NCBI RefSeq assembly: GCF_056712565.1
Contig: NZ_CM160072.1
Length of the DNA stretch: 64,000 bases
Strand: one strand, 5' to 3'
Shown in pieces: positions 9,001-12,000 of the stretch (within the stretch, counting starts at the first letter, position 1; every line of letters starts with the position of its first letter). The position numbers are program-made.

Positions 9001-12000
9001 TTTTACTACCAGCGTGTTCAGGAAACTATCGCTATCATTCGCCGCTATTTACCGGAAGATCGCTGCCTGATTCATAAACCGGAAGGAGCCATTTTCCTCT
9101 GGCTATGGTTTAAGGATTTGCCCATTACGACCGAGCAGCTCTACCAGCGCCTGAAAGCACGCGGCGTGCTGATGGTGCCGGGGCACAACTTCTTCCCGGG
9201 ACTGGATAAACCGTGGCCGCATACGCATCAATGTATGCGCATGAACTACGTACCAGAGCCGGAGAAAATTGAGGCGGGTGTGAAGATTCTGGCGGAAGAG
9301 ATAGAAAGAGCCTGGGCTGAAAGCCACTAAAAATTGCCTGATGCGCTACGCTTATCAGGCCTACATGATTTCTGCAATATATTGAATTTGGTAGAATTTG
9401 TAGGCCGGATAAGGCGTTTTAGCCGCATCCGGCATAAACAAAGCGCACTATCCCTGCGTTGAGAAACGCCGGAAAAACGTTTCAAACAGGCTGCTGCCGT
9501 AGCCGATGCCGCTGCACTTTCTCGACATCCACGCACTGCAACGCCTTTGTCGGGCAGGCTTCAACACAGGCCGGCCCCGTCGCCCGATGCCAGCACAGAT
9601 CGCACTTAATCGCCCTCGCCTTTTTGCGCGAAGAAACGACCTCCATCGCACCAAACGGGCAAGCCAGCATACAGCTTTTACAGCCAATGCAACGTGATTG
9701 TTCAACGAAAATATGCCCATGTTCGCGGCTTATCGCGTCAACAGGGCACACATTTGCGCACGGTGCATCTTCACACTGATGACAGGCTACTGCCGTGGTG
9801 TAAGTATGATCTTTAATGACACGAATACGGGAAATAAACTCGTCTGGTGACAACGCAGCGCAATCCTGATTCTCCTGATGCGACACTGCGCAAGCCACTT
9901 CACAGGTACGGCAACCGATACATTTCGTCGCATCCGCAATAATAAACCGGTTCATGATCACTCCTTTGCACTAAAACAGCAGAGTGCCAGAGAGCGCGTC
10001 CCTACTGCTTTGATCCAACGAAGGAAATGTTAAAGTTTTGGCACTTGTCCAAAGGGTTATGTAATCGCGCCCTGGTCGTCCCTGACAGTAAATCCCAGTT
10101 CATTAGAAATAGCCTGCGCGGTTTCACGCAGTGGTTTCAGGAGATTTTTCTCTCCCACCTGTTTCAGACGTGATGTCGAAAGCGAAATCGACACGGCGTA
10201 CGGCACCCGCCCATGAATATCAAACACCGGAACAGCAATACAGGAGACGCCGAGTTCGTTTTCTTCTCTGTCCATCGCCGCTCCACTTTCACGAATGTGC
10301 GCCAGTTCGTCGAACATCGCGGGCAGCTCGGTAATGGTATTGCGGGTTAACGGCTGGATCTCATGCTGATGGCTTTCCCAGTATGACTTCACGTAGTCCG
10401 GGTGACCAAACGCCATGTAGATCTTGCCCATTGCGGAACAGTAGAGCGGCATATGCTGGCCTATATAGGCACGGGTTCGCAGCATCCCGGTTGTGGGTTC
10501 CAACTTATAAATCAAAATAGCGTGATCGTCTTCGCGGCTGGAGAAGTTAATAGTTTCACCAGTGGCGATGTTCAGAGCCTCAAGATGCGGAGCGGCGATA
10601 TGAATGATATTCAGCGAAGATAGCGCCTTCTGCCCGACGGCAATAAATTTGGTGGTCAGGCGATAACTCCCTGCGGCGGGCGCGGTGGTCACATAGCCGC
10701 AGGACTGTAATCCCTGCAATAAGCGATGGACGGTACTCTTATTTAAACCAGCCAGCTCCGAAAGATGCGCCAACGGACAACCGTTTGGATAGTTGCTCAA
10801 AATCTCAATCAGCATCAACCCACGAAACAGACTCTGGCTTCCGGCTGGGCGCTCTTTTTCCTGCGCCATCTCGTTCTCTTTTTTTCCCATCACTTCTTTC
10901 CCCATTTTGTCGCGTCCTGATGGTAGCGCAAAGTGTGCCGTAGTTCACGATCTCGACAGATAATTTATAACCACTTGATTTTTAAGTTTTTTGAAATTCA
11001 TCAATCAGATTGCTTTGTTAAAAAGTGATCGATATATTTGAAATCAAGTTTCGCATATTGAAATTTTAAGCCAAAAAAGCGATCAAAAAAACAAGGAAGC
11101 CTGGGATGAAAGTGACATTTGAGCAGTTAAAAGCAGCCTTTAATCGGGTCTTAATTTCACGCGGCGTTGACAACGAAACGGCTGACGCCTGTGCAGAGAT
11201 GTTCGCCCGCACCACCGAATCCGGCGTTTATTCTCACGGCGTTAATCGTTTCCCTCGTTTCATTCAACAACTGGAAAACGGCGATATCATTCCTGATGCC
11301 CAACCCAAACGTATAACCAGCCTCGGCGCAATTGAACAGTGGGACGCCCAGCGTTCGATCGGTAACCTGACAGCGAAAAAGATGATGGATCGCGCCATTG
11401 AACTGGCTGCCGATCACGGTATTGGTCTGGTGGCACTACGTAATGCCAACCACTGGATGCGCGGCGGCAGCTACGGCTGGCAGGCGGCGGAAAAAGGCTA
11501 TATTGGCATTTGCTGGACCAACTCCATCGCCGTAATGCCACCGTGGGGCGCAAAAGAGTGTCGCATCGGCACCAACCCGCTGATCGTCGCCATTCCTTCC
11601 ACGCCGATCACCATGGTCGATATGTCGATGTCGATGTTCTCTTACGGCATGTTAGAAGTTAATCGCCTGGCTGGTCGTCAGCTCCCGGTAGATGGTGGCT
11701 TTGATGATGAGGGCAATTTGACCAAAGAACCTGGCGTTATCGAGAAAAATCGCCGCATTTTGCCGATGGGCTACTGGAAAGGTTCGGGCATGTCGATTGT
11801 GCTGGATATGATCGCTACCCTCCTTTCTGACGGCGCATCGGTTGCCGAAGTCACCGAGGACAACAGCGACGAATACGGCATTTCACAAATTTTTATTGCC
11901 ATTGAAGTGGACAAGCTTATCGACGGTCCCACCCGCGATGCCAAACTGCAACGCATTATGGATTACGTTACCAGTGCCGAGCGTGCTGACGAAAACCAGG

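What the first reader, a model, noticed from the sequence alone, without database searches (positions are those of the whole stretch)
10991..11064. Three TTGAAAT heptamers in the yiaJ-yiaK divergent control region
TTGAAAT occurs at 10991, 11038 and 11058 within an AT-rich region between the divergent repressor and operon genes. These may be half-sites of the YiaJ operator or part of IHF/CRP architecture.
Basis: seen in the sequence. Interest (0 to 1): 0.2.

Follow-up and report, generated by a model that had tools for sequence, protein, structure and literature searches.

The report
Known YiaJ repressor operator, plus coincidence
Two of the three TTGAAAT copies are conserved recognition boxes of the already described YiaJ (PlaR) repressor binding site sitting on the yiaK promoter of E. 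coli, and the third copy is most likely a chance match in an A/T-rich stretch next to an IHF site, so the finding is real but ordinary.

Summary
TTGAAAT occurs at 10991, 11038 and 11058 (+) between yiaJ (10057-10905, -) and yiaK (11106-12104, +) of an E. coli B2-type chromosome.

The copies are not three equivalent repeats. Copies 2 and 3 are boxes 1 and 3 of a three-box operator: TGAAAT(11039-44)-N3-(G/A)TTTCG(11048-53, inverted)-CATA(T/G)-TGAAAT(11059-64). It starts right after the -10 hexamer TATATT and covers the transcription start. I found this element upstream of 78 of 80 yiaJ orthologues across Enterobacterales, including 19 loci where yiaK is not the neighbour. The conserved unit is the hexamer TGAAAT; the first T of copy 3 is G in most genera.

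The element matches the published PlaR-box (Shimada 2019). It is also listed, box by box, for b3575 in the IclR-family comparative study of Suvorova and Gelfand (2021).

Copy 1 is not conserved outside E. coli. It lies in a variable A/T tract beside a conserved IHF core (10968-10980, -), and chance alone would give it 6-11% of the time.

No heptamer lies in the CRP site (10934-10949).

Verdict: already known, low interest.

The parts
10057..10905 (-). yiaJ (plaR), IclR-family repressor gene. The conserved start is probably the ATG at 10890.
   Evidence: ORF; Pfam HTH_IclR + IclR_C; PDB 1YSQ 'yiaJ'; RefSeq annotation; alignment for the start codon
10934..10949 (.). CRP site core TGTGC-N6-TCACG (the published 'Crp site 1', position recalled from memory). 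Contains no heptamer.
   Evidence: Pattern match; invariant in 46 aligned intergenic regions
10968..10980 (-). IHF-type core AATCAAGTGGTTA (WATCAANNNNTTR)
   Evidence: Pattern match. In the alignment the specified positions are conserved and the four N positions vary. Binding was not tested here.
10991..10997 (+). Heptamer 1. It lies in a variable A/T tract (TTTTAAAAAA or TTTTGAAAAA in other genera), about -55 to -49 of the yiaK promoter. Probably a chance match within the IHF A/T flank or an UP-like tract.
   Evidence: Listed only as the right box of a weak candidate site (score 4.02) in PMC8222616 supplement.
11010..11015 (+). -35 hexamer TTGCTT (TTGATC, TTGACT or TTGACA in other genera)
   Evidence: Read from sequence. 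TTG is invariant in the alignment and lies 17 bp from the -10. It falls below the threshold of the promoter scan.
11033..11038 (+). -10 hexamer TATATT. Its last T is the first T of heptamer 2.
   Evidence: Conservation. PMC6958661 states that the PlaR-box overlaps the experimentally identified yiaK promoter.
11039..11044 (+). Operator box 1, TGAAAT (core of heptamer 2)
   Evidence: PlaR-box; site at -73 of b3575, score 5.90
11048..11053 (-). Operator box 2, GTTTCG on the + strand (ATTTCG in most genera), inverted relative to boxes 1 and 3
11059..11064 (+). Operator box 3, TGAAAT (core of heptamer 3). Position 11058 varies: G 51, T 15, A 6.
   Evidence: Invariant or nearly so in 72 distinct sequences, although not imposed by the search pattern; site at -60 of b3575, score 5.86
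11036..11067 (+). Whole three-box YiaJ/PlaR operator, about -10 to +21 of the yiaK promoter
   Evidence: PWM score 47.8 against -6.4 for the next best place in the window; present in 78 of 80 yiaJ loci
11065..11084 (+). Conserved tail after box 3 (TTAnAG, with invariant G11070 and C11084). Possibly a degenerate fourth box or tandem site; otherwise unexplained.
   Evidence: weak tandem site at -53 of b3575, score 4.40, 20 nt from the main site
11106..12104 (+). yiaK, first gene of the repressed yiaK-S operon

Best explanation
Heptamers 2 and 3 are two of the three recognition boxes of the operator of the IclR-family repressor YiaJ (PlaR).

Anatomy: box 1 TGAAAT (11039-44), box 2 inverted (G/A)TTTCG (11048-53) and box 3 TGAAAT (11059-64). 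Boxes 1+2 form a GAAA-N-TTTC palindrome (the PlaR/KdgR type, 'group 2'). Boxes 2+3 form a TTTC-N-GAAA palindrome ('group 1'). Box 3 repeats box 1 after 20 bp, about two helical turns, so the two lie on the same face of the DNA.

Mechanism: the element begins immediately after the -10 hexamer and spans the transcription start and the first ~20 transcribed bases. Bound YiaJ therefore occupies the place of RNA polymerase and represses yiaK-S. The oligomer is inferred to be a dimer of dimers, or dimers using two alternative pairings. An effector releases it: ascorbate or galacturonate according to Shimada 2019, and L-ascorbate-6-phosphate according to earlier work that I cite from memory.

Activation comes from CRP at 10934-49, with an IHF bend at 10968-80 between CRP and the promoter.

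Heptamer 1 is not part of the conserved operator. It is most likely a chance match in the A/T-rich tract that flanks the IHF core.

Shown here: sequence anatomy, conservation and linkage to yiaJ. Taken from the literature: binding to the spacer, repression and effectors. Inferred: stoichiometry, which box pairs are used, and the IHF role of the A/T tract.
For: - The three-box element is found in 78 of 80 yiaJ orthologue loci from Escherichia to Serratia, Pectobacterium, Yersinia and Edwardsiella, always in the same orientation relative to yiaJ. This includes 19 of the 20 loci whose divergent neighbour is not yiaK; in the two such loci inspected it is a sugar ABC transporter.
- Box 3 TGAAAT is 69-72/72 conserved although the search pattern did not require it.
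- The intergenic alignment shows footprint-like blocks at exactly the CRP site, IHF core, -35, -10 and operator.
- The element is unique in the 64-kb window.
- It matches the 21-bp PlaR-box ATnTGAAACnnnGTTCAnTT, reported to overlap the yiaK promoter. The plaR-yiaK spacer was the strongest EMSA target.
- ChIP-exo places YiaJ at the RNA polymerase position, and the yiaJ deletion derepresses the operon.
- Suvorova and Gelfand list the same sequences for b3575 under both motif groups, and they describe three-box sites and tandem sites 18-22 nt apart as family features.
- The other top gSELEX target, yeeO in K-12, shows TGAAAT-N3-GTTTCA plus TGCAAT in the same +20 register.
- Heptamer 1: lost in E. 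albertii, altered in E. whittamii, replaced by TTTTAAAAAA or TTTTGAAAAA elsewhere. Chance expectation is 6-11%.
Against: - No base-resolution footprint of YiaJ on this promoter was available to me. The 2000 paper by Ibanez et al. is not in the held library, so the start site (about 11046-11048) and the -50..+121 binding fragment are from memory.
- Gao 2018 reports two ChIP-exo peaks in the spacer, and I could not place the second one.
- Heptamer 1 is retained in all 7 E. coli sequences compared although its flanks vary. It scores as well as box 3 on a single-box matrix. It was also called as a weak candidate site in the 2021 study, so an E. coli-specific auxiliary role is not excluded.
- The promoter-scan tool reported no promoter at its threshold.
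Confidence: 0.85

Rival explanations
1. All three heptamers are YiaJ contacts. Heptamer 1 is an E. coli-specific auxiliary half-site 47 bp upstream. It helps a YiaJ tetramer bridge or loop the promoter, or it accounts for the second ChIP-exo peak and for autoregulation of yiaJ.
For: - Heptamer 1 with its 3' T (TTGAAATT) is identical to box 3 and scores equally on the single-box matrix.
- It is kept in all 7 E. coli sequences compared while neighbouring bases vary.
- It is listed as the right box of a weak candidate site, score 4.02, in PMC8222616.
- Two YiaJ peaks are reported in the spacer.
Against: - It is not conserved outside E. coli, whereas the regulator and the three-box operator are.
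- It has no inverted partner; the left box of the candidate site is TTTTAA.
- The 47-bp spacing puts it on the opposite DNA face from box 1.
- Chance gives such a copy in 6-11% of shuffles.
- From memory, a fragment starting at -50, which lacks most of heptamer 1, still bound YiaJ (Ibanez 2000).
Confidence: 0.1
2. Boxes 2 and 3 matter as RNA. They would form a 7-bp hairpin at the 5' end of the yiaK mRNA (GUUUCGC-AUA-UUGAAAU) that stabilises or regulates the transcript.
For: The two arms can pair in 93.8% of alignment cells, and they lie within the first ~20 transcribed bases.
Against: - No pair shows a compensatory change, and all 500 column shuffles reach the observed values.
- Box variation (A/G at the third box position) occurs independently in each box, within the degeneracy of the protein motif (TGRAAY).
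- Box 1, which is equally conserved, lies upstream of the start site and cannot be in the RNA.
- In E. coli itself the closing C-U pair is a mismatch.
Confidence: 0.03
3. The repeats are chance products of an A/T-rich intergenic region and have no function.
For: The region is 65.5% A+T. The window-wide count of TTGAAAT is not significantly raised. Some triple 7-mer arises in 2.6% of shuffles.
Against: Boxes 1 and 3 are invariant over a wide span of Enterobacterales while neighbouring spacer bases vary. The element is linked to yiaJ whatever the neighbouring gene. Published binding data exist. Chance remains the preferred reading for heptamer 1 only.
Confidence: 0.02
4. The same boxes are (also) an operator for the paralogous repressor KdgR, whose box TGAAAC-N3-GTTTCA is nearly the same. 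The site would then integrate pectin/KDG signals.
For: Shimada 2019 notes the similarity of the PlaR-box and the KdgR-box and proposes co-regulation of some targets. Boxes 1+2 fit TGRAAY-N3-RTTYCR.
Against: The element co-occurs with yiaJ in every lineage, with T rather than the KdgR-typical C at the sixth box position. KdgR-type boxes upstream of kduI score negatively on the yiaJ-locus matrices. No data were found on KdgR binding at yiaK.
Confidence: 0.08

Closest known systems
PlaR-box (YiaJ/PlaR recognition sequence, Shimada et al. 2019, PMC6958661)
   Same: Same locus and same sequence. The 21-bp palindrome ATnTGAAACnnnGTTCAnTT corresponds to window 11036-11056 (ATTTGAAATCAAGTTTCGCAT). It overlaps the yiaK promoter and acts as a repressor site.
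   Different: The published box covers only boxes 1 and 2. Box 3 (heptamer 3) lies outside it, and heptamer 1 is not part of it.
Three-box IclR-family sites (Suvorova and Gelfand 2021, PMC8222616; experimentally PcaU, PobR, HmgR)
   Same: Three boxes with alternating direction. One pair fits the group 2 consensus and the other pair fits group 1. The yiaJ/yiaK divergon (b3574/b3575) is listed under both groups with exactly these sequences. For PcaU the third box is reported to be required for binding.
   Different: For YiaJ the role of the third box has not been tested experimentally. The PcaU-type boxes have a different sequence (GTTCGAT...).
KdgR box of Dickeya/E. coli (IclR family)
   Same: Same half-site family (TGAAA[C/T]-N3-[G/A]TTTCA) and the same mode of repression at sugar-acid catabolic promoters.
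   Different: A different regulator. KdgR sites near kduI show no third box in the +20 register and score poorly with the yiaJ-locus matrix.
TtgV-operator complex (PDB 2XRO), IclR-family tetramer on a 42-bp operator
   Same: It offers a structural precedent for a dimer of dimers contacting successive boxes on one face of the DNA. TtgV is a detectable homologue of YiaJ (E = 2.4e-16).
   Different: A different operator sequence. Whether YiaJ binds as a tetramer was not tested here.

Membership tests
YiaJ/PlaR operator (PlaR-box) | Match to the 21-bp palindrome ATnTGAAACnnnGTT(T)CAnTT | tested here: met
   Window 11036-11056 ATTTGAAATCAAGTTTCGCAT. TGRAAY-N3-RTTYCR matches once in the window, at 11039-11053. 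Consensus quoted from PMC6958661.
YiaJ/PlaR operator (PlaR-box) | Lies in the plaR-yiaK spacer and overlaps the yiaK promoter | tested here: met
   The element starts directly after the conserved -10 TATATT at 11033-38. The overlap is stated in PMC6958661 and the RNA polymerase position in PMC6237786.
YiaJ/PlaR operator (PlaR-box) | Co-occurs with the regulator gene across species | tested here: met
   78 of 80 yiaJ orthologue loci carry it in a fixed orientation, including 19 of the 20 loci without an adjacent yiaK.
YiaJ/PlaR operator (PlaR-box) | Physically bound by YiaJ at these bases | not testable with these tools
   The literature shows binding to the spacer by EMSA, gSELEX and ChIP-exo. 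No base-resolution footprint was accessible.
IclR-family three-box site | Three boxes of alternating direction | tested here: met
   TGAAAT (+) 11039-44, GTTTCG (inverted) 11048-53, TGAAAT (+) 11059-64. All three are conserved.
IclR-family three-box site | One box pair fits the group 2 consensus and the other fits group 1 (WTTYCRYW3RYGRAAW) | tested here: met
   Group 2 type: exact match. Group 1 subgroup: 2 mismatches in this E. coli and none in the cross-genus consensus ATTTCGCATAGTGAAAT. Both are listed for b3575 in PMC8222616.
IclR-family three-box site | The third box contributes to binding (as shown for PcaU) | not testable with these tools
   Indirect support only: invariance of box 3, and a TGCAAT in the same +20 register at the yeeO site.
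IHF binding site | Core WATCAANNNNTTR with an A/T-rich tract on its 5' side | tested here: inconclusive
   The core is met at 10968-10980 (-) with a footprint-like conservation pattern. No heptamer is in the core. Heptamer 1 lies in the A/T tract 11-17 bp 5' of it. IHF binding was not tested.
CRP binding site | TGTGA-N6-TCACA | tested here: not met
   The only CRP-type core of the spacer is at 10934-10948. None of the heptamers overlaps it or resembles it.
Regularly spaced direct repeats (iteron-like) | Equivalent copies at a constant spacing | tested here: not met
   The spacings are 47 and 20 bp. Copy 1 is not conserved, and an inverted box lies between copies 2 and 3.

The most novel reading that the evidence does not exclude
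The three-box layout could reflect two alternative YiaJ dimer geometries on one operator: boxes 1+2 versus boxes 2+3. Alternatively it could be an asymmetric tetramer using box 3 plus a degenerate fourth box that contains the invariant G11070. In E. coli, heptamer 1 would then be a lineage-specific extra contact that explains the second ChIP-exo peak and autoregulation. The alternative-dimerisation idea is already published as a hypothesis for the family, but it is untested for any sugar-acid regulator.
Probability: 0.15. Interest if true: 0.4.

Novelty: already known. Interest (0 to 1): 0.12.

Why it matters
The finding matters little beyond annotation. It fixes which bases of a well-studied E. 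coli control region belong to the YiaJ/PlaR operator: 11036-11067, with three boxes.

It also shows that the published 21-bp PlaR-box is incomplete, because it omits a third, equally conserved box. The upstream heptamer should not be counted as an operator element without experiment.

The yiaK operator would be a convenient, naturally strong test case for the untested 'three-box / alternative dimerisation' hypothesis for IclR-family regulators.

Tried and rejected
- **Ibanez et al. 2000** (J Bacteriol 182:4617, PMC94634), the paper with the start site, EMSA fragments and CRP/IHF data, is not held. Its citation was confirmed through a reference list, but its numbers are used from memory only.
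- **Supplement of Gao 2018** (ChIP-exo peak coordinates) is not held.
- **Two literature searches** for base-level descriptions of the yiaK promoter gave nothing useful.
- **The promoter/terminator scan** found no promoter at its threshold, because the E. coli -35 TTGCTT has only 3 of 6 matches. The promoter was instead placed by conservation.
- **A first CRP pattern** with the wrong spacer (N8) gave no match; it was corrected.
- **RNA hairpin reading** of boxes 2+3: no covariation. The palindrome of boxes 1+2 has one symmetric double change only, which is not above the shuffles.
- **Fourth inverted box after box 3:** the sequence (AAGCCA, or GAGATA in the consensus) does not resemble ATTTCG.
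- **Second CRP site** among the conserved bases downstream of box 3: I found no TGTGA/TCACA-like arrangement by eye.
- **yiaJ promoter position:** not resolved from sequence alone.
- **Further operator copies** in the 64-kb window: none.
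Full report
**Observation.** The window reads ...TTTTTTGAAATTCATCAATCAGATTGCTTTGTTAAAAAGTGATCGATATATTTGAAATCAAGTTTCGCATATTGAAATTTTAAGCC.... 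TTGAAAT occurs on the + strand at 10991, 11038 and 11058.

The flanking ORFs are a 282-aa protein on the - strand (10057-10905) and a 332-aa protein on the + strand (11106-12104). The first has the HTH_IclR and IclR_C domains and is identical over residues 91-282 to PDB 1YSQ, 'HTH-type transcriptional regulator yiaJ'. The second is an Ldh_2 dehydrogenase. The DNA is 100% identical to E. coli ATCC 11775 and other B2-type strains, where the genes are annotated yiaJ and yiaK. The region is present in 4990 of 5426 complete E. coli genomes.

**Is it more than chance?**
- Window-wide, the heptamer is not enriched: 22 observed against 14.6 expected.
- The local cluster is unusual. No shuffle out of 5000 of the 200-bp spacer gives three copies. 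Some 7-mer of three or more letters occurs three times in 2.6% of shuffles. Only two such clusters exist in the 64 kb.
- Given two functional copies, a third in the upstream 130 bp is expected in 6% (+ strand) to 11% (either strand) of shuffles.

**Anatomy from comparative data.** A scan of one genome per species returned 80 loci with a yiaJ orthologue (74-100% identity), from Escherichia, Citrobacter, Klebsiella and Enterobacter to Hafnia, Rahnella, Serratia, Pectobacterium, Yersinia and Edwardsiella. In 60 of them yiaK is found upstream on the opposite strand.

An alignment of 46 distinct spacers of similar length shows sharply bounded conserved blocks:
- GATGGTAGCGCAAAGTGTG-N7-TCACGATCT, which contains a CRP core at 10934-10948.
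- TAAC-NNNN-TTGATT at 10968-10980. On the - strand this is AATCAAGTGGTTA, a perfect WATCAANNNNTTR (IHF-type core). Its specified positions are conserved and its four N positions vary.
- A -35 hexamer, TTGCTT in E. coli and TTGATC, TTGACT or TTGACA elsewhere (11010-15).
- A -10 hexamer, TATATT (11033-38), 17 bp downstream of the -35.
- A nearly invariant block TTTGAAATCAGATTTCGCATAGTGAAATTTAG, directly abutting the -10.

**The operator.** The invariant block has three boxes:
- box 1: TGAAAT (11039-44)
- a 3-bp spacer
- box 2: inverted, ATTTCG (GTTTCG in this strain, 11048-53)
- CATA(G/T)
- box 3: TGAAAT (11059-64)

Box 3 repeats box 1 after exactly 20 bp.

A pattern that specifies only boxes 1 and 2 found the element upstream of yiaJ in 78 of 80 loci, always in the same orientation relative to yiaJ. 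This includes 19 of the 20 loci where the divergent neighbour is not yiaK; in the two inspected, L073 and L021, that neighbour is a sugar ABC-transporter operon.

In 72 distinct sequences, box 3, which the pattern did not require, reads T 72, G 72, A 69, A 72, A 72, T 72. The conserved unit is therefore the hexamer. The T at 11038, the first base of heptamer 2, is conserved because it is the last base of the -10 hexamer.

A matrix of the three-box element scores 47.8 at 11036-11067 and at most -6.4 anywhere else in the window.

**Heptamer 1.** In other genera the corresponding position reads TTTTAAAAAA (Citrobacter, Klebsiella) or TTTTGAAAA(A/T) (Enterobacter). In E. albertii it is TTTTAAAAA and in E. 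whittamii TTGAAAA.

All seven E. coli sequences compared keep it, although the bases around it vary. At this level of divergence that is weak evidence.

It has no inverted partner, and it lies 47 bp (4.5 helical turns) from box 1. On the strand of the IHF core, it falls in the A/T-rich tract 11-17 bp 5' of the core, where IHF sites usually carry an A/T-rich element (general knowledge). It is also at about -55 to -49 of the promoter, where an UP-like A/T tract would lie. I read it as a composition-driven coincidence inside that tract. An E. coli-specific auxiliary role is not excluded.

**Comparison with the literature.**
- *Shimada et al. 2019* (PMC6958661) identified by gSELEX and gel shift a 21-bp palindromic PlaR-box, ATnTGAAACnnnGTTCAnTT. 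They state that in the plaR-yiaK spacer it overlaps the experimentally identified yiaK promoter. That spacer gave the strongest binding. Window 11036-11056 (ATTTGAAATCAAGTTTCGCAT) is that box, so heptamer 2 is its left half.
- *Gao et al. 2018* (PMC6237786) found YiaJ by ChIP-exo at the yiaK promoter 'occupying the position of RNAP', a second peak in the spacer, and strong derepression of yiaK-S in a yiaJ deletion.
- *Suvorova and Gelfand 2021* (PMC8222616) describe two IclR-family motif types that differ in box arrangement. They predict 32 orthologous groups with three-box sites of alternating direction (precedents PcaU, PobR and HmgR; for PcaU the third box is needed for binding). They also describe tandem sites 18-22 nt apart, consistent with tetramers.
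- *The supplement of that paper* lists four sites for b3575:

| Position | Sequence | Score | Corresponds to |
|---|---|---|---|
| -73 | ataTTTGAAATCAagTTTCgCAtaT | 5.90 | boxes 1+2 |
| -60 | AgTTTCgcATATTGAAATT | 5.86 | boxes 2+3 |
| -53 | cATaTTGAAATttTAagcCAaAAaa | 4.40 | weak tandem site |
| -127 | TtTTatgTcTtTTGAAATT | 4.02 | weak site ending in heptamer 1 |

Every element of the finding has thus been described before.

From memory of Ibanez et al. 2000 (not held): the yiaK-S start is 60 bp upstream of the ATG, about 11046-11048. YiaJ binds a -50..+121 fragment, Crp site 1 is centred near -106, and IHF modulates expression. All of this agrees with the anatomy above. It would also mean that a fragment lacking most of heptamer 1 still binds YiaJ.

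**Mechanism.** The operator runs from the last bases of the -10 hexamer to about +20. Bound YiaJ therefore excludes RNA polymerase or blocks open-complex formation and escape. This is the classical arrangement for a repressor, and it agrees with the derepression data.

Which box pairs are used is unresolved. There are two options:
- a dimer on boxes 1+2 plus a second dimer on box 3 and a degenerate fourth box 20 bp away, on the same face (tetramer model);
- alternative dimer geometries on boxes 1+2 and 2+3.

After box 3 the sequence TTAnAG is conserved, with G11070 invariant, and C11084 is invariant too. These bases do not resemble a box.

The other top gSELEX target, the yeeO 5' region of K-12, has TTTGAAAT-GTG-GTTTCAC followed by TGCAAT in the same +20 register. 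This is a small independent hint that the third box is recognised. KdgR-type boxes near kduI have no such third box.

**Rivals tested.**
- An RNA hairpin formed by boxes 2 and 3 at the 5' end of the mRNA is not supported. The arms can pair in 93.8% of cells, but no pair has a compensatory change and all 500 shuffles reach the observed values.
- Box positions vary (A/G at the third position) independently in each box, as expected for a degenerate protein motif.
- The CRP site contains no heptamer.
- A regular direct-repeat array is excluded by the unequal spacings and by the inverted middle box.

**Verdict.** The element is the known YiaJ/PlaR operator, already predicted box by box.

Novelty: already known. 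Interest: low.

The only modest additions here are:
- the breadth of conservation and the linkage to yiaJ rather than yiaK;
- the evidence that the published 21-bp PlaR-box omits an equally conserved third box;
- the evidence that the upstream heptamer is not conserved.

Noticed in passing
window 11065-11084: After box 3 the tail TTAnAG is conserved. G11070 and C11084 are invariant in 72 of 72 distinct orthologous sequences, although they match no box, CRP or promoter consensus that I could recognise.
   Followed up: partly
window 10949-10952, 11027-11030, 11081-11084: There are three GATC (Dam) sites in the spacer. The last two lie in an inverted repeat, GTGATCGA / GCGATCAA (TTGATCGC / GCGATCAA in Citrobacter and Klebsiella). 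The repeat is centred at about 11055.5, the centre of the box 2-box 3 palindrome. It is not conserved in Enterobacter.
   Followed up: no
L027 (uncultured Klebsiella MAG), upstream of yiaK: The spacer is about 66 bp shorter and lacks the -10 hexamer and the whole operator. The CRP site, A/T tract and -35 are kept. This is either a natural promoter/operator deletion or an assembly artefact.
   Followed up: no
L037, L048, L049 (between yiaJ and yiaK): These longer spacers carry the standard operator next to yiaJ. They also carry a second three-box-like site, GTGAAAT-N3-ATTTCAC-TAT-G(C/T)(G/A)AAAC, close to yiaK, in the same 20-bp register.
   Followed up: partly
window 10888-10905: The annotated yiaJ start (ATG at 10905) is absent in other genera. 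The ATG at 10890 (residue 6), preceded by a GGAG/GGGGAA-type ribosome-binding sequence, is the conserved one. The real protein is therefore probably 5 residues shorter than annotated.
   Followed up: partly
window 12603-13523: This strain has a DUF4862-family gene between yiaL and yiaM (also annotated in ATCC 11775). It is absent from K-12, where yiaM follows yiaL directly.
   Followed up: partly
window 30269-30445: A cluster of TGTGA-N6-TCAC cores (eight of the nine window-wide pattern matches, counting both strands) lies just upstream of mtlA. This is presumably the known multi-CRP-site mtl promoter.
   Followed up: partly
window 3024-3089: This is the only other place in the window where a 7-mer (GGATTAA) occurs three times within 80 bp. 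By offset to the annotated strain it lies inside xylH coding sequence.
   Followed up: no
L088 9669-9697 (- strand; E. coli K-12 yeeO 5' region): A three-box-like site, TTTGAAAT-GTG-GTTTCAC-TTTC-TGCAAT, lies inside the annotated 5' end of yeeO. This is the other strongest gSELEX target of PlaR.
   Followed up: partly
L086 (NZ_CP025268.1, MG1655 derivative): A galK gene sits inside the yiaJ-yiaK spacer, between the heptamer 1 region and the -35. It is evidently an engineered insertion that separates the CRP/IHF region from the promoter.
   Followed up: no
L081 3651-4818 (about window 3450-4617): xylR is annotated as frameshifted (a pseudogene) in ATCC 11775, the strain whose yiaJ-yiaK spacer (window 10800-11200) is identical to the window.
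   Followed up: no
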